DNA of 64,000 bases from Escherichia coli (lineage in GTDB: Bacteria; Pseudomonadota; Gammaproteobacteria; Enterobacterales; Enterobacteriaceae), in NCBI RefSeq assembly GCF_022846255.1, contig NZ_AP025682.1; one strand, written 5' to 3'. Shown here in pieces: positions 49,749 to 63,762 of the stretch. Below the pieces are notes generated by a model that had not been told where the DNA came from, ran no database searches, and saw nothing but the letters and a program-made list of their open reading frames with translations. Both the position numbers and the translations under genes were made by a program. The first letter of the stretch is position 1. Each line of letters opens with the position of its first letter.

Positions 49749-49954
49749 TTACCGTTAAATCATTTTAAAAATCAGTAAGTTGTATCGAGTTTGTATGCTT
49801 TACTGTCATTAACTTACTGTATGTTGATCCAGTGTATTTAACCTTGATAAACTCAGTCCAGTAACACAAAGCCGCAACACATTGCATTTTGTCCCGTAGA
49901 AAAGACTTGTATGTGTGTGCTTGTTTTCTGCGCCTACGCAGATAAGGATTGAGA

Positions 49955-51352
49955 ATGCCGCGCACTGTAACACATAATCCGGATAGCCCCAATAATGACG
50001 ATGTTTTAGCCGCATCTGAAAAATGGGACGCCTGTAAACCCCCCTATACCAGCGCACACATGAAAATCTGTGTTGCTGCCGCCAAAATCATCCTCGCTGC
50101 TTCCGGCGTGGCTCGCCGTTCCAAATACGAAAAAGAGAACTATCTCCGTATCGATTTCAGCAAAGCCGGTAAGGTTACATTTTACGCCGAGTTTCCAAAA
50201 AAGATGGGCCTCAAAGGTAAAAAGCTCGGCGAGTGGCCGGAGCTCGCTATCCAGCTGGCGCGCGAAAAAGCGCTAGGTATGGCTGACGGTGGCCTGCGGG
50301 CAGAGTCCGTACATGCAGCGCTGGAAATGTACCGGGATGACCTCAAAGCCAAAGTCGCCCGGCAGAAGCTGAGCCCGGACAGTTTCACAACCTACGGGGT
50401 GCGTATCGACCGGATTAAAGCAACGTTCGGCGAGCGCGAGGTGTTCAGCGACGTAACATACAATCGGCTGGTGGAAGTGCTGGACGAGTGGATCGCTACT
50501 CGCTCGAACAATAACGCCCTGGAGTTGTTTGCCGAGCTCCGTCGGTTCTGGAAGTTCTGCGCACCTACTCTTTGCAACGGCCGCAATGTTGCCGCCAGTC
50601 TGCCAGATGATTATGTTTCCTCCCGCGTACAGAAACCTACCCCCACACGGCTTTTTACCGATATTGAATCAATCGCCCGACTCTGGCTCAATGTTGCTGC
50701 CTGCACCTCTGTACACCAGAAGAATGCTGTTCGCTTCATGATCATCACTGGTGTTCGTCCGATTAATGTCCATAACCTGCGCTGGGACTACGTTCACGAG
50801 GAGGCTGGTGAAATTGTTTATCCGGAAGGGGTTATCGGCATGCGAGGGGCTATGAAAACACAAAAGGCTTTCCGCCTGCCGATAACCCCTGAGATCCGGC
50901 GGATTATCGACGAGCAGAAAGCCTGGCGTGATTCAGTTCCTGAGTGCAACAGGGATTATGTATTTTTGCAGCCACGTGATCCAATGCAGCCATTTTCAAA
51001 ACGATCACTGGATAAGCTGGTGAAAACATACAGCCCGGACGGGGCTGTAAAAGGAATAAAACATGATGGGACTGTTAAAGGGAAAGACGGTGCATTTAAT
51101 ACGATGTGCCGTAAATTCCTTAAGAGCAATGTTATTGCCTTGATGAAGGAAAGAGGCTATTCCCGCTCAGACCGAAGGGAAATCAGCCTCCTTTGCCTTC
51201 ACCACTCCAGCAAGTCAGATGACCCGATGGCAGAACATTACGACTTTTCTGATGAGATTTTACAGGAAGAGATTGCGTTGAAGCGCGAAGCTTTCGAGGC
51301 TCACGAGCGGAGCATACTTGCGCAGGTGGCATTGCTACGGCGGCGAGGTTAA
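49955..51352 (+). CDS. Phage-type tyrosine integrase (start uncertain: TTG 49949, ATG 49955 with AAGGA RBS, or ATG 50060)
   Basis: C-terminal catalytic-domain pattern ending ...LHHSSKSDDPMAEHYDF with the tyrosine nucleophile; arm-binding-like N-terminus; position at the element boundary. Confidence 0.85.
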   Translation: MPRTVTHNPDSPNNDDVLAASEKWDACKPPYTSAHMKICVAAAKIILAASGVARRSKYEKENYLRIDFSKAGKVTFYAEFPKKMGLKGKKLGEWPELAIQLAREKALGMADGGLRAESVHAALEMYRDDLKAKVARQKLSPDSFTTYGVRIDRIKATFGEREVFSDVTYNRLVEVLDEWIATRSNNNALELFAELRRFWKFCAPTLCNGRNVAASLPDDYVSSRVQKPTPTRLFTDIESIARLWLNVAACTSVHQKNAVRFMIITGVRPINVHNLRWDYVHEEAGEIVYPEGVIGMRGAMKTQKAFRLPITPEIRRIIDEQKAWRDSVPECNRDYVFLQPRDPMQPFSKRSLDKLVKTYSPDGAVKGIKHDGTVKGKDGAFNTMCRKFLKSNVIALMKERGYSRSDRREISLLCLHHSSKSDDPMAEHYDFSDEILQEEIALKREAFEAHERSILAQVALLRRRG

Positions 51353-53002: not shown

Positions 53003-53920
53003 TTATAATAGTGCTGTTACTATTGCATCTTTAAAAATATTTTCTTCTTCATTTATTAAAGGTGATGACAGATGAATAATTACTTCTTTTCCTGTCAATA
53101 CTATTTGCTCGACTTGAAATCCTGCGTTGTGTAGTCTTTGGCGTAACTTTTCTAGTGCTGATTTTGATATACTAAATCCTTCACTCCTTATAGTATAACT
53201 GGCAACTCCATTTTTAATAATATCTACAGAGTTGTCAATTTCCTGCTGCGAGTAATTTTTCGGTGAGTCGAAAAATCTGGATTTTGTCGTTGCTGTTGCC
53301 CTAAGAGATATCAATAATGATTTGATATCTTTAATCTCAGATGCCAGATACTCAGTTTCTGATACTTCTTTCTGGTCTAGTTGTGCAACTTTGAAAGTGC
53401 CAAAATGTTTGAGGAATGTTGTGTATTCAGGATCAGTTACTGACTTTAAATATGTTTCTTTTATCTTGCTCGCAAGTCTTTCTTTGAATAAATTGATTGA
53501 TTGGTATCTTAAATCCGAAGGGTACTCTAAATGTTCAATTGATGAAATGTCAAAGCTATAAGGAGTGCGCTCGTCCTTAATAATTACGGTCGGTTTGTCA
53601 AATGCGAGACGCATTCCTAATTCAAACATTACATTAGCGTTTCGAGCACTTATATCGCAAACAACTATGGGGTTTTCATAAAGATTTTGAACAATTCGTT
53701 TTTGTATTACTGCAACATCATCATCTGAACTTACCAAATTTGCCTTGAATCCGGCATCATTTGATGCTTCACAAATAATGTCATGAACATTTCTCCAATG
53801 TCCAGTGGGATAACCTTCTATGTCCGCAATTGGCATAATAATGCCGCATATATGAGGTGGCATATTTTTGTTGTCTTTTACATCATCTTGGTTTATTTCT
53901 TTCGTTTGTTGCTTAGCCAT
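53003..53920 (-). CDS. Hypothetical cargo protein (305 aa) with a Rossmann-like N-terminal domain of NDT/TIR-fold appearance and an unknown C-terminal domain
   Basis: N-terminal pattern ICGIIMPIAD ... IVVCDISARNANVMFELGMRLAFDKPTVII (beta-strand, then conserved Glu in an FELG context, as in nucleoside 2-deoxyribosyltransferase/TIR-like folds); gene is conspicuously AT-rich; own terminator. Confidence 0.5.
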   Translation of the reverse strand: MAKQQTKEINQDDVKDNKNMPPHICGIIMPIADIEGYPTGHWRNVHDIICEASNDAGFKANLVSSDDDVAVIQKRIVQNLYENPIVVCDISARNANVMFELGMRLAFDKPTVIIKDERTPYSFDISSIEHLEYPSDLRYQSINLFKERLASKIKETYLKSVTDPEYTTFLKHFGTFKVAQLDQKEVSETEYLASEIKDIKSLLISLRATATTKSRFFDSPKNYSQQEIDNSVDIIKNGVASYTIRSEGFSISKSALEKLRQRLHNAGFQVEQIVLTGKEVIIHLSSPLINEEENIFKDAIVTALL

Positions 53921-53935
53921 AGCTTACACAGACTC

Positions 53936-54220
53936 CTATTGTAATTTTTTGCCTAATATACATGAAAGCTCCTTACTATCCAGTACTACCACGGTAAAGC
54001 CCAGTTTTCGCAGACGTTCATGCTCGCGCAACTGATCAGGTCGTGGTGGTTTGCCTGGTGCTTTGCATTCGACAAAGACGATGCGACCGCCGGGTAGCAG
54101 AACAATGCGATCTGGTACCGAGCGGAGACCGGGAGATACGAACTTAAAGGCAACCCCGCCAGCCTTTTTTACTTCAGCGACGAGGTGCTTTTCGATTAGG
54201 TTTTCACGTTCATAGGCCAT
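53936..54220 (-). CDS. VRR-NUC domain nuclease (94 aa)
   Basis: PD-(D/E)xK-type motif ...PDRIVLLPGGRIVFVECKAPG...; typical partner of phage SNF2 helicases. Confidence 0.75.
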   Translation of the reverse strand: MAYERENLIEKHLVAEVKKAGGVAFKFVSPGLRSVPDRIVLLPGGRIVFVECKAPGKPPRPDQLREHERLRKLGFTVVVLDSKELSCILGKKLQ

Positions 54221-54414
54221 TAGCTTTCGCCTTCCTGCTTTTTGCGTTTCTTCATGCAGATAGCGCAGTTCTCAGGATGGTCATGCCATTCGTCAATCCT
54301 GATACCTGTGAACATCCATTTTCCGCATAGTGATATGGCTTCCCCCGAATTAAAGAAATGTGCTTTTTTCGACAGGGCGGGGAACCCCCAACCTTTATTA
54401 TCGATATTAGACAT
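54220..54414 (-). CDS. Small Cys/His-containing phage protein (64 aa), possible zinc ribbon
   Basis: ...SLCGKW...HDHPENCAICMKKRKKQ; stop overlaps the VRR-NUC start. Confidence 0.45.
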   Translation of the reverse strand: MSNIDNKGWGFPALSKKAHFFNSGEAISLCGKWMFTGIRIDEWHDHPENCAICMKKRKKQEGES

Positions 54415-54602
54415 CGTCCACCTCCTTACGCTTTTCGCGCATGTTCTGCATCAGACAAAAATCAAACCGACGTTCGCTTTGGCCCAGACCTGCATCGCCC
54501 GGTCGTACCCGCTGGACTGTTCAAGGCGCAAAGCCTCCCGCGCAGTCCGGTAATAAAGCGGACTGTCCCGGTATTTAAATGACATAGGGTTTTTATTCCC
54601 AA

Positions 54603-54625
54603 ATAAAAAACCCCGCAATGCAGGG
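54603..54625 (-). terminator. Rho-independent terminator after the TIR-like gene
   Basis: Minus-strand RNA cccugc auu gcgggg (one G-U pair) followed by UUUUUU. Confidence 0.6.
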
Positions 54626-54649: not shown

Positions 54650-55411
54650 TTACGAGGAAGCGTTAGCTATTTGAGCTTGTGTAAATTCGAAACCAGAATT
54701 TTGTAACCGTTGCACTAGACGAGGAACTGTTTCACGTACATGGTCGTTGAAATTCAGATACAAAATCCCGTTAGCATCAGAAGGCTGTTCTAGGTGCTGT
54801 TTCTGAAGGATTGCTACATTGCTGCGCCCTAAGGACGAAAGAAGCATACCCATCTCGAGTACAACGTTCTGTCTTGCGCGGGGTTGGATTTCTGCTTCAC
54901 CGGCGCGCTTTGAGTATCCCATATCATCAGGTGTCAAAAGAACAATCCCGAAACGGGTAGCAGTTTGTCCTTGCCCAATTTCACGTTCAAGCTCTTCAAT
55001 AATGGTGAGTCCAGTCCCTCCCGTATTCTGCAAAATGAAATGGTCTGGTAATCCAAGTTTATGAAGGATTAGCTCAAGTTGTTCCTTTGCAGTATGGTCA
55101 TGGCCGTGAACAATGAATATCTTTTTGGGAAGCTCAGATGGCTGTTCTACGGCTAGTGGTGTTGCCGTGGGGGGCGTTCCTAAATGGGACATTATTGCAG
55201 TTTCAACATTGGGACGTTCTTGAGGGTTACCTTGAAACTGAATGGTCCGGGTGGTGTAAAGGTTAACAATTACGCCATTCGTTAAACGATAGCAGTCATA
55301 AGTCTCACGCTGTTCGTGGGAAAAATTGGTGAACCCACACTCCCTCAAAAAGTCAGGAAAAGATTCTCTCGGGTATGGATAGGTGATCGGCATTTCAGTT
55401 AGTTCCTGCAT
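54650..55411 (-). CDS. TIR-like nucleotide-binding domain protein (253 aa), Cap12-like TIR-like family with an unknown about 80-aa N-terminal domain
   Basis: KIFIVHGHDHTAKEQLELILHKLGL ... FGIVLLTPDDMGY ... RARQNVVLEMGMLLSSLGRSNVAIL, matching my recollection of the 'predicted nucleotide-binding protein containing TIR-like domain' family (PF10137); AAGGA RBS; own terminator. Confidence 0.65.
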   Translation of the reverse strand: MQELTEMPITYPYPRESFPDFLRECGFTNFSHEQRETYDCYRLTNGVIVNLYTTRTIQFQGNPQERPNVETAIMSHLGTPPTATPLAVEQPSELPKKIFIVHGHDHTAKEQLELILHKLGLPDHFILQNTGGTGLTIIEELEREIGQGQTATRFGIVLLTPDDMGYSKRAGEAEIQPRARQNVVLEMGMLLSSLGRSNVAILQKQHLEQPSDANGILYLNFNDHVRETVPRLVQRLQNSGFEFTQAQIANASS

Positions 55412-57627: not shown

Positions 57628-59130
57628 TTAATATGATAAATAATCATACAAGCATAAAAGTCGCCTGTATTGGGTATCAATTTTATGCCCTGGTTTTGTT
57701 AAATAATCTCGTAGTTGTTTCAATGAAATAGTATCGTTTAGTACGCAATACATAATCGTGTTAGCAACTTTATACTCTTTCGTTTCTTTTAGTATTTCAT
57801 CAATAGACACAGCCTCACTCTTACATGTTTTAATTCGAGAAAGGTTACCAATGATTTTATCTAGCTGCCGTTTTCTGTATGTCTCGGTATTTTCTAGTTC
57901 AGGGCAGATAGAACTAAAAGCGTATATTGGAAAGTGTTCGCTATTAGCTATGGTTTGCTTATTCAGTAATGCGATAAGCTGAGAGTTTGCTTCGTCAACT
58001 ATTTTAAAATAGTTCTGTATCATTTCAGATTTTGTTTGATAAACATATTGTACGGTTCTTTCTGAACCAACAGCAATGACCATTTCATCATTGCGAAGTT
58101 CATCTAAATTTTCTGTAATTTTAACCTTTATCTCACCACCACTTTTGATGGTACTCCAAACTTTTTGAACCTTTCTTATGTCCATTGCGGATACTGGCAA
58201 AACTAGTCCCGAGATGGCATCATATACAGCTTTGTAATTGTTTGTTTTTATTTTGTTTATTCTTATGATAGACATGCCTTCTATATCTATGTCATGCTCC
58301 GTAATTTCAGTTGACATGCTGTCTTTTTCGTATTCAACCAAAAGAAAATTATCTTTTATCCTTTTTGCAAGTTCGGTATTTAAGTCAACGTATGAGAATA
58401 TGGTTTTTAATAAGTACTTAATGTTTTTATCGCTAATACTATACCCTATAAATATGATAGGGTTGTGTATGAATATTGAGAGTAATTGAGCGCGAATTAA
58501 CTCATATTTATTGTCGAAGTTTGCGTAGTCTTCACCTGTGATAATTATGTTGTTAGGATCACTAACACAGCCATGTATTTTGTAAACTGAACCGTATGGG
58601 TTACTTAAAAGAATGTTATTACCAATCAGTGGGTTAAATTCGAAGATGTTCTCTACGAGTTGGTCGTAGTTTGTTGTAATGATGGAGCCTATGTTTTTTC
58701 TTGTTTTTATTAAGCTGTTTATTTCCTCCATCATTGACTCTTTTATCTTTAGGTCTTTAAGTATTGAAGTTAAATAAATTTTGAATCGACTTAGTTTTTT
58801 TCCTTTTTTCATGTGCTCATAGAAAACATCATTGATGTCTTTGAACTTACCGTTACGATCTTCTGCCAGCTTTTTATTAAAAATATCTTCAAGTTTTGTA
58901 GCTAAGATATCATATCGATAGTCGTCACCTTCTAGGCTTTCAGCTTTCAAATCGTAGTAAAACTCAGCATTACCGGTTAGTTCCATTGCGACACTCAAAA
59001 GAAGACCATCCCAGCTAAATGAGTTTTCTAGATACCGTAGGCTAAATCCTGTTCCAATGAATAGAACAGGGTGGTTTTTATAGTGACTTACAAACTCTTG
59101 GATTTCCATACCGATTCTCAAAGTTGACAC
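57628..59130 (-). CDS. SIR2-like (sirtuin-fold, SIR2_2-type) protein, 500 aa, with an about 250-aa C-terminal domain of unknown type
   Basis: Motifs PVLFIGTGFS, SIITTNYD, YKIHGC and IIFIGYSISD, in the order seen in defence-associated SIR2 domains; GTG start at 59130 with AGAGG RBS (first ATG at 59109); roughly 30% GC by hand count versus about 50% in flanking polymerase; own terminator. Confidence 0.75.
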   Translation of the reverse strand: MSTLRIGMEIQEFVSHYKNHPVLFIGTGFSLRYLENSFSWDGLLLSVAMELTGNAEFYYDLKAESLEGDDYRYDILATKLEDIFNKKLAEDRNGKFKDINDVFYEHMKKGKKLSRFKIYLTSILKDLKIKESMMEEINSLIKTRKNIGSIITTNYDQLVENIFEFNPLIGNNILLSNPYGSVYKIHGCVSDPNNIIITGEDYANFDNKYELIRAQLLSIFIHNPIIFIGYSISDKNIKYLLKTIFSYVDLNTELAKRIKDNFLLVEYEKDSMSTEITEHDIDIEGMSIIRINKIKTNNYKAVYDAISGLVLPVSAMDIRKVQKVWSTIKSGGEIKVKITENLDELRNDEMVIAVGSERTVQYVYQTKSEMIQNYFKIVDEANSQLIALLNKQTIANSEHFPIYAFSSICPELENTETYRKRQLDKIIGNLSRIKTCKSEAVSIDEILKETKEYKVANTIMYCVLNDTISLKQLRDYLTKPGHKIDTQYRRLLCLYDYLSY

Positions 59131-62170: not shown

Positions 62171-62253
62171 GCTGTTGCGAGTGCGCTTTCAGACATAAAA
62201 AAGCCCGTCACTTGAGGCGGGCAAAGACTACACACAGCAATTACATGGATGAT

Positions 62254-62448
62254 TCAGTTGGTATTGTGCGTACGTGGTACCACAAGGTTGAAGCGGACAC
62301 GCCAGTGCGTTGCAATGGTATGCAGGAAAGCACCACATCCAGGGCAGTGCTCATAACATTCGTTGATTTGGTATCGTTTTGGCTTTGGTGTCAGAAGCTG
62401 TGTTTGGCAAGCAGGGCATTCACCTTTGAGCGGTTTATACGTTTTCAC
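62254..62448 (-). CDS. Small Cys-rich phage protein (64 aa), possible zinc finger
   Basis: CPACQ ... CYEHCPGCG; first gene of the leftward operon. Confidence 0.45.
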   Translation of the reverse strand: MKTYKPLKGECPACQTQLLTPKPKRYQINECYEHCPGCGAFLHTIATHWRVRFNLVVPRTHNTN

Positions 62449-62717
62449 GCCGTTTCCTCATTCAGTTCACTTTGGTGGTTCGGCGGCTTCGACTTGTATC
62501 AGTAGACAGTGCTTCGCCGCACCCCAAAGGGAACTTACTGACCCGTATTGCCGACATCCTGTCCCGCCACGGTCCCGACGCATGGTTTAGAGTCGCGCCG
62601 TTCGACTTGTGGTTTAAATATCTGTGTATAGATATCTTAACTTTACGCGTATAGTTAAGACTTCTAAACTCACAAAGTCAAGTGTTGAGGTTAAGAAAAG
62701 TGAACTTTTTCGGATAG

Positions 62718-62746
62718 GTAAAGAAAAGCCCGCTTAGGAAGCGGGC
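62718..62746 (-). terminator. Terminator after the CI-like repressor gene
   Basis: Minus-strand gcccgcuu ccu aagcgggc followed by UUUUCUUU. Confidence 0.6.
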
Positions 62747-62770: not shown

Positions 62771-63463
62771 TCAGAGCAGAACGGAGTACCAAAATACTTG
62801 GCCTATAATCCTGATTTTATTAGCCTCTTGATTAAAATACTCTTCGTCTGCGTATTCATCCCTATTGAAAGAGCGTATCCGGAGTCCGCTTGGGAGACGG
62901 TACAATAGTTTGACACGAAGTAATCCGTCTTGGTCTATGGCGTACATTTGACCATCTTTTACACCTGTTTTTGATGTATCTATGCCGACGACAGCGCCAT
63001 CCGGTAATACCGGTTCCATGCTGTTGCCGTGGATGCTGACACAAGCCGCACAATTTACGTCAACACCTGCTTTGCGCAACGTTGAACGGGCGAATCTTAA
63101 CTTACATCCCATTCGATCTATATCAACATAAGTACCATTACCGGCAGATAGCTCAATTTCCTGATAGAACGGTATTTCCACTTCATCATCCTCTAATGGC
63201 GTTGATGAGTCCCATACAGAAAACCCTCCCTCAACTTGTGCATTAGAATGTATTTCTTTGGTATCGCTTGTTTTGCCTGAAAGTAGCCACTCTGGAGAAA
63301 CGTTCAATGCTTCGGCCAGATTTATAAGATTTTTCCCGTTAGGTGTGGTGTTTCCGGATTCCCATTGTGAAATCGTGGCTTTAGTTAGACCAATACGTTT
63401 AGCAAGCGCATCCTGCGTTAGGTGGACATTGCGACGAGCCTCGCGAATACGATCATTAATCAT
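62771..63463 (-). CDS. CI-like repressor (HTH_XRE plus S24 LexA-like peptidase domain, 230 aa)
   Basis: N-terminal HTH LTQDALAKRIGLTKATISQWESG; C-terminal S24-like region with GNSMEP (Ser nucleophile) and a downstream Lys; GAGG RBS. Confidence 0.8.
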   Translation of the reverse strand: MINDRIREARRNVHLTQDALAKRIGLTKATISQWESGNTTPNGKNLINLAEALNVSPEWLLSGKTSDTKEIHSNAQVEGGFSVWDSSTPLEDDEVEIPFYQEIELSAGNGTYVDIDRMGCKLRFARSTLRKAGVDVNCAACVSIHGNSMEPVLPDGAVVGIDTSKTGVKDGQMYAIDQDGLLRVKLLYRLPSGLRIRSFNRDEYADEEYFNQEANKIRIIGQVFWYSVLL

Positions 63464-63576: not shown

Positions 63577-63762
63577 ATGAAAAAAGCAGAAGCAATTGAG
63601 CTTGCAGGAAGTAAAGCGAAACTAGCGAGACTATTGAAGGTTTCCAAAGGAGCCGTATCTCAATGGGGGGAGGAAATCCCAGAGTTAAGAGCTCTTCAAC
63701 TTGAAAAGATTTTGGAGCAAAAAAATGTAGTCAAACAAAAAGGCTTAACCCATGTCCGATAG
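63577..63762 (+). CDS. Cro/YdaS-like small HTH protein (61 aa)
   Basis: LAGSKAKLARLLKVSKGAVSQW HTH; divergent from the CI-like gene. Confidence 0.7.
   Translation: MKKAEAIELAGSKAKLARLLKVSKGAVSQWGEEIPELRALQLEKILEQKNVVKQKGLTHVR

What the first reader, a model, noticed from the sequence alone, without database searches (positions are those of the whole stretch)
54220..54414. Two small Cys-rich proteins in the prophage (54220..54414 and 62254..62448)
Both 64-aa products have CxxC-type clusters (CGKW...C.IC and CPAC...CPGCG). One is translationally coupled to VRR-NUC and the other opens the leftward operon. Small zinc-ribbon proteins in phages often act as regulators or as inhibitors of host functions.
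Basis: inference. Interest (0 to 1): 0.3.

Follow-up and report, generated by a model that had tools for sequence, protein, structure and literature searches.

The report
Two unrelated small phage zinc proteins
Both 64-residue reading frames are real, conserved prophage genes for two unrelated small, probably zinc-binding proteins from uncharacterised phage families; they are optional accessory genes with no known function, so the finding is correct but ordinary.

Summary
ORF1 (54220..54414) has a strong ribosome-binding site and a TAATG stop/start overlap with the VRR-NUC gene. It belongs to PHROG 2358 (E 2.6e-25, function unknown), found in about 300 Pseudomonas PB1-like phages and several enterobacterial phages, with conserved W9, H19, C30 and C50xxC53. 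It is not a classical zinc ribbon. It has no conserved neighbour across 27 lineages, so the VRR-NUC link is local. ORF2 (62254..62448, GTG start) is a four-cysteine zinc ribbon (AF2 pLDDT 90). NCBI's PGAP pipeline never annotates it, yet it is under purifying selection (dN/dS 0.16-0.44). It has rare homologues down to 48% identity and is distantly related to phage Mu gp6 (hhalign 97.7%). It is the first ORF after the left operator cluster, the position gene N holds in lambda, but close relatives lack it. The two genes assort independently (37 and 57 of 5426 complete E. coli genomes). No member of either family is characterised. Most likely they are stand-alone early accessory binding proteins. 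By-product: 12 nt after ORF2's stop lies an unannotated copy of the last ~47 nt of the host sRNA RprA, serving as the first terminator of the leftward operon.

The parts
54220..54414 (-). ORF1: 64-aa protein of PHROG 2358 (function unknown). Conserved W9, H19, C30, C50xxC53 and a basic C-terminal helix.
   Evidence: E 2.6e-25; AF2 pLDDT 84; annotated 'hypothetical protein' WP_001551508.1 on a near-identical prophage region (100% over the 801-bp query).
54419..54427 (-). Shine-Dalgarno sequence of ORF1 (AGGAGGTGG), 4 nt before the ATG.
   Evidence: Read from the sequence.
53936..54220 (-). VRR-NUC nuclease gene. Its ATG overlaps the ORF1 stop (TAATG).
   Evidence: PF08774, E 0.0021, below Pfam cutoff; phrog_93, E 3.4e-31.
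62254..62448 (-). ORF2: 64-aa four-cysteine zinc ribbon (C11xxC14 ... C35xxC38), GTG start, distant relative of phage Mu gp6.
   Evidence: unannotated in every RefSeq record listed (25 of 57).
62455..62459 (-). Shine-Dalgarno sequence of ORF2 (GAGGA), conserved in the E. coli and Enterobacter copies.
62449..62612 (-). About 165-nt leader between the operator cluster and ORF2. Its first ~110 nt are nearly identical in E. coli and Enterobacter bugandensis, more conserved than ORF2 itself.
   Evidence: It does not fold better than shuffled sequence (z -0.94).
62614..62705 (.). Operator-like repeats (GTTTAGTTnnCTTAAC type), also present between the repressor and cro genes. Inferred left operator/promoter region and left edge of the immunity module.
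   Evidence: Similarity to strain E62, which has a different repressor, ends at 62612.
62728..62746 (-). Intrinsic terminator after the repressor gene.
62771..63463 (-). CI-type repressor (HTH_3 plus Peptidase_S24).
62193..62245 (-). Copy of the last ~47 nt of the host sRNA RprA (conserved single-stranded stretch plus terminator hairpin and U-run), starting 12 nt after the ORF2 stop. It is the first terminator of the leftward operon.
   Evidence: RF00034, 49.7 bits, E 2.7e-5; 84.8% identity to native rprA over 46 nt.

Best explanation
The two ORFs are real but unrelated genes for small, metal-stabilised proteins that the prophage carries as optional cargo in its early leftward operon. ORF1 belongs to a widespread phage family (PHROG 2358) of about 65-residue proteins. 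Its one invariant His and three Cys most likely hold one zinc ion (inferred), tying a short beta unit to a lysine-rich C-terminal helix. ORF2 is a five-stranded, four-cysteine zinc ribbon from a rare subfamily distantly related to phage Mu early protein gp6. Each is a single-gene module with no conserved partner gene. Each sits in a slot that sister phages fill with other cargo, and in other phages the relatives lie among early genes. The likeliest mode of action (inferred, not shown) is that each is made early after induction and binds one host or phage macromolecule on its own. That would make it a host-takeover or counter-defence accessory rather than a core phage regulator or a subunit of the neighbouring nuclease. 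Shown: gene reality, conservation, family membership, predicted fold, dispensability, independence of the two genes. Inferred: zinc binding, early expression, binding-type function.
Confidence: 0.55

Rival explanations
1. ORF2 is not a protein gene. Its conservation reflects an RNA- or DNA-level function of the early-left leader, which ends in the RprA-like terminator (for example a long precursor of a phage sRNA).
For: PGAP leaves it unannotated in every RefSeq record examined. GTG start. The upstream leader is more conserved between E. coli and Enterobacter than the ORF. The Rfam RprA model aligns across the ORF's 3' end. One copy carries a frameshift in an A-run (L034). The family is extremely small.
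Against: dN/dS 0.16-0.44, and the frame is open in 20 of 21 copies. Homologues at 61% and 48% identity keep all four zinc ligands and two peptide motifs while the DNA has diverged. There is profile-level homology to Mu gp6 proteins. The Shine-Dalgarno sequence is conserved. The AF2 model is confident, pLDDT 90. Only the 3' ~50 nt of the Rfam match is real similarity, and it lies outside the ORF.
Confidence: 0.1
2. ORF2 is the phage's N-like early regulator. It is made first from the left promoter and lets RNA polymerase read through the terminator just downstream, or binds its own transcript as Mu Com does, to switch on the replication genes.
For: It holds the position of lambda N: repressor gene, terminator, operators, leader, ORF2, terminator, early genes. 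The leader is highly conserved. The order ORF2 - terminator - 49-aa ORF is kept in a distant relative (L012). Zinc ribbons often bind nucleic acids or RNA polymerase (general knowledge).
Against: Phages 689R2, 606R2 and 611R5, and about two thirds of related E. coli prophages, keep the same terminator and downstream genes but lack both ORF2 and its leader. There is no arginine-rich motif. No Pfam, PHROG or NCBIfam hit to N, Q, Com or other antiterminators. The leader has no significant structure. In L012 another gene directly precedes the homologue, so it is not always first.
Confidence: 0.08
3. ORF1 is an accessory subunit or regulator of the VRR-NUC nuclease to which it is translationally coupled.
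For: TAATG stop/start overlap. The same ORF1-then-VRR-NUC order occurs in the Klebsiella aerogenes prophage. In phage swi2 the homologue lies near a RusA-like resolvase.
Against: Across 27 lineages no neighbour family recurs in 3 or more. The genes downstream of homologues in L037, L038, L039 and swi2 are not VRR-NUC. About 100 related E. coli prophages have the VRR-NUC gene with a different gene, or none, in the ORF1 slot. Pbunaviruses carry the family in a block of small early genes.
Confidence: 0.1
4. One or both are sequence-specific DNA- or RNA-binding zinc fingers that regulate phage genes, i.e. true regulators.
For: Lysine-rich helix after CxxC in ORF1 (CMKKRKKQ; K/R-rich in most homologues). 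ORF2 has weak sub-threshold similarity to DNA-binding zinc ribbons: zf-IS66 25.9 bits, TFIIB-type, Top1-type. An ANR-family regulator gene lies just upstream of ORF1.
Against: Both genes are dispensable and swapped among otherwise near-identical phages with the same regulatory circuits. ORF1 homologues occur in unrelated lytic and temperate phages with no shared neighbouring DNA, which argues against a cognate cis-site. No regulator family is matched above threshold.
Confidence: 0.15

Closest known systems
PHROG 2358 (uncharacterised phage protein family; e.g. Pseudomonas Pbunavirus Ab28 gp08, Escherichia phage swi2 gp76, Shigella phage Sf11 gp71)
   Same: ORF1 matches the family profile end to end (E 2.6e-25). 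It shares the GWG-P, KAH[FY]F, SLCGKW and CxxC-KK motifs and the ~65-aa size.
   Different: Nothing distinguishes it. It is an ordinary member, here placed in a temperate E. coli phage next to VRR-NUC. The family has no Pfam or NCBIfam model, no solved structure and no known function.
Phage Mu gp6 family (Pfam PF26833 Phage_Mu_gp6; PHROG 3786; e.g. SfMu_06)
   Same: Small early-region proteins with CPxC-x(17-22)-CPxC, a conserved aromatic/acidic stretch between the knuckles and a hydrophobic strand after the second knuckle. hhalign 97.7%, E 1.5e-12.
   Different: ORF2 itself matches phrog_3786 only weakly (E 0.035) and shares about 20% identity. It lacks the ~20-residue N-terminal helical extension of the Mu proteins. 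It has its own motifs (KPLKG, IATHW) and sits in a non-Mu phage directly after the left operators. Mu gp6 itself has no known function.
Lambda N (and other first-gene-of-pL antiterminators)
   Same: Same map position: first ORF after the left operator/promoter, followed by a terminator that precedes the early genes.
   Different: No sequence similarity, no arginine-rich motif, a zinc-ribbon fold, and absence from close relatives that keep the terminator and the operon. The analogy is positional only.
LysW / zinc-ribbon carrier proteins (PDB 3wwl, 3vpb)
   Different: No sequence-level relationship (E 0.76). ORF2 lacks LysW's acidic C-terminal tail that carries the amino-acid substrate. The match shows the generic fold, not the function.
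Mu Com (62-aa zinc-finger translational activator of mom)
   Same: Similar size and a four-cysteine zinc site in a phage protein that acts on its target mRNA (PMC6483171, abstract).
   Different: No Pfam or PHROG match of ORF2 to Com. Cited only as a precedent for what such a protein could do.
RprA sRNA (Rfam RF00034), for the element just downstream of ORF2
   Same: 24 consecutive bases identical to the Rfam consensus, plus the terminator stem and U-run. 84.8% identity to native rprA over 46 nt. This corresponds to the ~47-nt processed form that is active in vivo (PMC9262595).
   Different: The 5' half of RprA is missing. The score of 49.7 bits is below the gathering score of 70. It is embedded in a phage operon as a 3'UTR/terminator rather than being an Rcs-controlled stand-alone gene.

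Membership tests
PHROG 2358 (ORF1) | Significant full-length match to the family profile | tested here: met
   E 2.6e-25, residues 2-62.
PHROG 2358 (ORF1) | Conserved W, H, C and CxxC positions shared with diverse members | tested here: met
   W9, H19 and C50 are invariant; C30 and C53 are at least 90% conserved in 44 sequences. The same motif is seen in 54 IMG/VR homologues.
Classical zinc ribbon (two CxxC knuckles on a beta sheet) | Two CxxC/CPxC knuckles about 15-25 residues apart | tested here: met
Classical zinc ribbon (two CxxC knuckles on a beta sheet) | The same feature, tested for ORF1 | tested here: not met
   ORF1 has one CxxC at the start of a helix, plus isolated H19 and C30. No zinc-ribbon Pfam hit in the family beyond one member at E 0.1.
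Zinc-binding protein (either ORF) | Stoichiometric bound zinc | not testable with these tools
   Inferred only from conserved ligands and predicted folds.
Phage_Mu_gp6 (PF26833) / PHROG 3786 (ORF2) | Direct profile match of ORF2 itself | tested here: inconclusive
   phrog_3786 E 0.035 and phrog_4875 E 0.0064. PF26833 did not appear among the Pfam hits, and may be absent from the Pfam copy used.
Phage_Mu_gp6 (PF26833) / PHROG 3786 (ORF2) | Homology through intermediates and profile-profile comparison | tested here: met
   ORF2 profile to P0048, E 3.5e-14. P0048 to PF26833 (precomputed) and to phrog_3786, E 2.6e-9. hhalign 97.7%. The alignments are small and driven by cysteines.
Lambda N-type antiterminator (ORF2) | Arginine-rich RNA-binding motif and similarity to N proteins | tested here: not met
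   No such motif in the sequence and no family hit.
Lambda N-type antiterminator (ORF2) | Required wherever the downstream terminator and operon are present | tested here: not met
   Phage 689R2 and about 120 E. coli prophages keep the terminator and operon without ORF2.
zf-IS66 (PF13005) (ORF2) | Score above the Pfam gathering threshold | tested here: not met
   25.9 bits against 27.3; covers only the second knuckle and the C-terminus.
Lar-like restriction alleviation protein (phrog_6422) (ORF2) | Significant profile match | tested here: not met
   E 0.099 with no accepted stretch.
Known anti-phage defence components (PADLOC) (both ORFs) | Match to any defence-system protein model | tested here: not met
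   No hits for either ORF.
RprA sRNA RF00034 (element 62193-62245) | Full-length match above the gathering score | tested here: not met
   49.7 bits against 70; the 5' half does not match.
RprA sRNA RF00034 (element 62193-62245) | Homology to the 3' ~47-nt processed form, including the terminator | tested here: met
   24-nt identical run plus stem and U-run. 84.8% identity to annotated rprA in 5419 of 5426 genomes.

The most novel reading that the evidence does not exclude
The unit just downstream of the left operators (conserved leader, ORF2, then a copy of the last ~47 nt of RprA) could be a dual-function early transcript. It would encode a Mu-gp6-like zinc ribbon, and its 3' end, released by termination or RNase E processing, would act as a phage mimic of processed RprA. 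That mimic could enter the host Hfq network (RpoS, biofilm and nitrate-response targets) or compete with the host sRNA. ORF2 might bind this RNA or tune termination at it.
Probability: 0.12. Interest if true: 0.6.

Novelty: new member of a known kind. Interest (0 to 1): 0.22.

Why it matters
As stated, the finding adds two more small 'hypothetical' phage proteins, so its direct impact is small. Three points have some value. (1) ORF2 is a real gene that the standard NCBI pipeline misses in all 25 listed of the 57 complete E. coli genomes that carry it. It links a rare enterobacterial subfamily to the uncharacterised Mu gp6 family. (2) ORF1's family is widespread: about 300 Pseudomonas PB1-like phages used in phage therapy work, plus coliphages. 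It is compact, models confidently and moves as a stand-alone module, the typical profile of a host-takeover or counter-defence factor, so it is a cheap candidate for functional screens. (3) The RprA 3' copy next to ORF2 is the most testable lead from this locus: a possible phage-borne mimic of a host regulatory RNA, present in about 3% of complete E. coli genomes.

Tried and rejected
3. BFVD fold search for ORF1 returned only its own family. The afdb50 library was unavailable.
4. Domain fusions of ORF1 as a functional clue. The C-terminal domain of SP13_103 has no informative Pfam hit.
5. Guilt by association for ORF1. No recurrent neighbour in 27 lineages, and downstream genes in four other phages are not VRR-NUC.
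6. ORF2 as zf-IS66, Lar, Com, TFIIB or Nop10. All are sub-threshold, generic zinc-knuckle similarity.
7. PDB sequence search for ORF2 gave only generic zinc fingers.
8. A structured RNA in the ORF2 leader. The fold is no better than shuffles (z -0.94), and there is no Rfam hit other than RprA.
9. A consensus sigma-70 promoter between the repressor gene and ORF2. None was found by the scan, so the left promoter is inferred from the operator repeats and the immunity boundary only.
10. Literature. No papers on phage 689R2, on an 'RprA-like' phage RNA, or on Mu gp6 function were found.

Full report
SETTING. The right end of the window is a prophage integrated beside yfhL. The integrase gene is at 49949..51352. 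A leftward (minus-strand) early operon follows: SNF2 helicase, VRR-NUC, family-A DNA polymerase, DUF2815, DUF2800. A CI-type repressor (62771..63463, minus) and a Cro-like gene (63577..63762, plus) lie further right. Near-identical DNA occurs in Escherichia phages vB_EcoM-689R2, 606R2 and 611R5 and in 139-177 of 5426 complete E. coli genomes. The phage is a mosaic. Conserved backbone genes alternate with slots whose content differs between relatives.

OBSERVATION. Both ORFs exist exactly as described. ORF1 (54220..54414, minus) starts at an ATG four bases after AGGAGGTGG and ends in TAATG, sharing one base with the start of VRR-NUC. ORF2 (62254..62448, minus) starts at a GTG six bases after GAGGA. 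The cysteine patterns are rare in the window. Three of 330 ORFs of at least 50 aa have two CxxC motifs 8-40 residues apart, one being the ferredoxin yfhL, and ORF1's H-C-CxxC pattern is unique.

ORF1. It matches PHROG 2358 (function unknown) at E 2.6e-25. It has no match in Pfam, NCBIfam or PADLOC. RefSeq and the 689R2 record annotate it as a hypothetical protein.
- Distribution: tblastn finds it in 313 phage records. Of these, 287 are Pseudomonas phages (PB1-like Pbunavirus), and the rest include Escherichia phage swi2, Shigella and Klebsiella phages and a Wifcevirus, where it is the N-terminal domain of a 177-aa protein. A profile search gave 43 clusters, and an IMG/VR scan gave 55 loci.
- Conserved residues: W9, H19 and C50 are invariant, and G8, P12, F21, S28, C30 and C53 are nearly so. 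This points to a His-Cys3 metal site (inference).
- Selection: against the Klebsiella aerogenes orthologue (70% identity) dN is 0.19 while dS is saturated.
- Context: I clustered all ORFs within 2.5 kb of the homologues from 27 lineages. No neighbour family is shared by three or more lineages. The genes just downstream in four other phages are not VRR-NUC. In sister E. coli prophages the slot between VRR-NUC and the ANR-family gene holds DUF4406, DUF7446 or a SAM methyltransferase instead.
- Prevalence: ORF1 is in 37 of 5426 complete genomes.
In short, ORF1 is an ordinary member of a widespread, uncharacterised, stand-alone phage gene family. Its coupling to VRR-NUC is a feature of this phage lineage only.

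ORF2. In the genomes checked, PGAP places no CDS over it: strains STEFF_1 and E62, and all 25 records listed of the 57 that carry it. A few GenBank records call it a hypothetical protein.
- It is nevertheless a gene. The frame, the GTG and the Shine-Dalgarno sequence are kept in E. coli variants (88% identity) and in Enterobacter bugandensis (75%), with dN/dS of 0.16-0.44. Twenty of 21 collected copies are intact; one has an extra A in an A-run.
- An exhaustive profile search of 1.84 billion representatives finds only two more homologues, 63 and 66 aa (E 2.9e-23 and 3.5e-14). Both keep C11, C14, C35 and C38 and the KPLKG and IATHW motifs, but not C31.
- One of these carries a precomputed Pfam hit to Phage_Mu_gp6 (PF26833) and matches phrog_3786, the family of SfMu_06, at E 2.6e-9. 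hhalign of the ORF2 group against a Mu-gp6-like group gives 97.7% probability. ORF2 itself reaches phrog_3786 only at E 0.035.

MAP POSITION OF ORF2. Reading leftward, the order is as follows.
- The repressor gene.
- An intrinsic terminator (62728-62746).
- A cluster of operator-like repeats (62614-62705), also found between the repressor and cro genes.
- A ~165-nt leader.
- ORF2.
- Twelve bases later, a hairpin with a U-run.
- The 49-aa ORF and the replication genes.
Similarity to strain E62, which has a different repressor, stops at 62612. This marks the edge of the immunity module. ORF2 therefore holds the place gene N has in lambda. It is not N-like in sequence. The 689R2-type phages also go straight from operator-like repeats to the same hairpin and operon without ORF2 or its leader. 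ORF2 is present in 57 genomes, against 177 that have the hairpin element. An essential antiterminator role is therefore unlikely. A more distant relative (L012) keeps the order ORF2 homologue, terminator, 49-aa ORF, but has another gene directly upstream.

RELATION BETWEEN THE TWO. There is none. The folds and families differ, and the genes assort independently: 689R2 has ORF1 only, STEFF_1 has ORF2 only, and some strains have both.

MECHANISM. Nothing in any library or paper searched gives a function for either family. The following features fit single-protein accessory binders made early, aimed at a host or phage macromolecule, better than core regulators:
- small size;
- a probable structural metal site;
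- no conserved partner gene;
- dispensability;
- location in cargo slots that otherwise hold DNA-modification genes;
- for relatives, a place among the early genes of lytic phages and of Mu.
This is inference, and I put it at about 0.55. Rivals are a non-coding ORF2 (0.10), an N-like or Com-like ORF2 (0.08), ORF1 as a VRR-NUC accessory (0.10), and nucleic-acid-binding regulators (0.15).

BY-PRODUCT. The hairpin after ORF2 (62193-62245, minus) is a copy of the 3' end of the host sRNA RprA. Rfam RF00034 scores 49.7 bits (E 2.7e-5). There are 24 consecutive bases identical to the consensus, plus the terminator stem and U-run, while the 5' half does not match. It is 84.8% identical over 46 nt to the annotated rprA gene of 5419 of 5426 genomes. 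The phage-type copy is in 177 genomes and is unannotated in the record listed. It is conserved in Enterobacter and in 689R2. The last 47 nt of RprA form a processed species that exists in vivo and is active on its own (PMC9262595). No paper mentioning a phage RprA-like RNA was found.

VERDICT. These are two ordinary members of uncharacterised small phage protein families, so interest is low. The adjacent RprA mimic deserves its own follow-up.

Noticed in passing
window 62193-62245 (minus strand), 12 nt downstream of the ORF2 stop: Unannotated copy of the last ~47 nt of the host sRNA RprA, consisting of a conserved single-stranded stretch, terminator hairpin and U-run. Rfam RF00034 gives 49.7 bits, E 2.7e-5, and identity to native rprA is 84.8%. 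It acts as the first terminator of the early leftward operon. It is present in 177 of 5426 complete E. coli genomes, in phage 689R2 and in an Enterobacter prophage. It may be a phage mimic of processed RprA.
   Followed up: partly
E. coli plasmids (not in the window); result: The same 69-nt RprA-like query also hit 29 places on E. coli plasmids. I did not check which plasmids these are, or whether the hits are of the phage type or the native type.
   Followed up: no
window 62449-62612 (minus strand): The leader between the left operators and ORF2 is almost identical in E. coli and Enterobacter bugandensis over its first ~110 nt. That is more conserved than the adjacent coding sequence, where dS is 0.53. 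It has no significant predicted RNA structure (z -0.94) and no Rfam match, and the reason for the conservation is unexplained.
   Followed up: partly
window 54650-55411, 57628-59130 and 53003-53920 (all minus strand): Three cargo genes are inserted in the early operon. The first is a TIR-domain protein matching PADLOC candidate system PDC-S35 (E 1.3e-108). The second is a SIR2-domain protein matching PDC-S25 (E 4.1e-158). The third is a 305-aa protein with a weak TIR-effector match. The second and third lie in low-GC islands (32-36% against about 50%). Sister prophages carry other genes in these slots.
   Followed up: partly
window about 54407-54618 (minus strand): The ANR-family (AraC negative regulator) gene just upstream of ORF1 is flagged by PGAP as a frameshifted pseudogene on a near-identical prophage region (100% identity over the 801-bp query). 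An intact 71-aa version exists in strain STEFF_1. In its intact form its stop would overlap the ORF1 start.
   Followed up: partly
window 61988-62137/62170 (minus strand): Conserved 49-aa ORF (60 aa from an upstream GTG), PHROG 11981, with a hydrophobic C-terminal segment that suggests a small membrane protein. It is the first gene after the RprA-like terminator in all relatives, including the distant locus L012.
   Followed up: no
L001 (phage 689R2) 4330-4400, minus strand: In phages lacking ORF2, two copies of CACTGTAGGGGT lie about 70-110 nt upstream of the RprA-like element. This suggests a different operator and promoter set feeding the same terminator and operon, and a short stand-alone RprA-like transcript.
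   Followed up: no
L034 4001-4171 and protein P0002: Rare damaged alleles. One IMG/VR copy of ORF2 has an extra A in an A-run, causing a frameshift. One E. coli record has a 35-aa truncated ORF1. Either could be a sequencing error.
   Followed up: no
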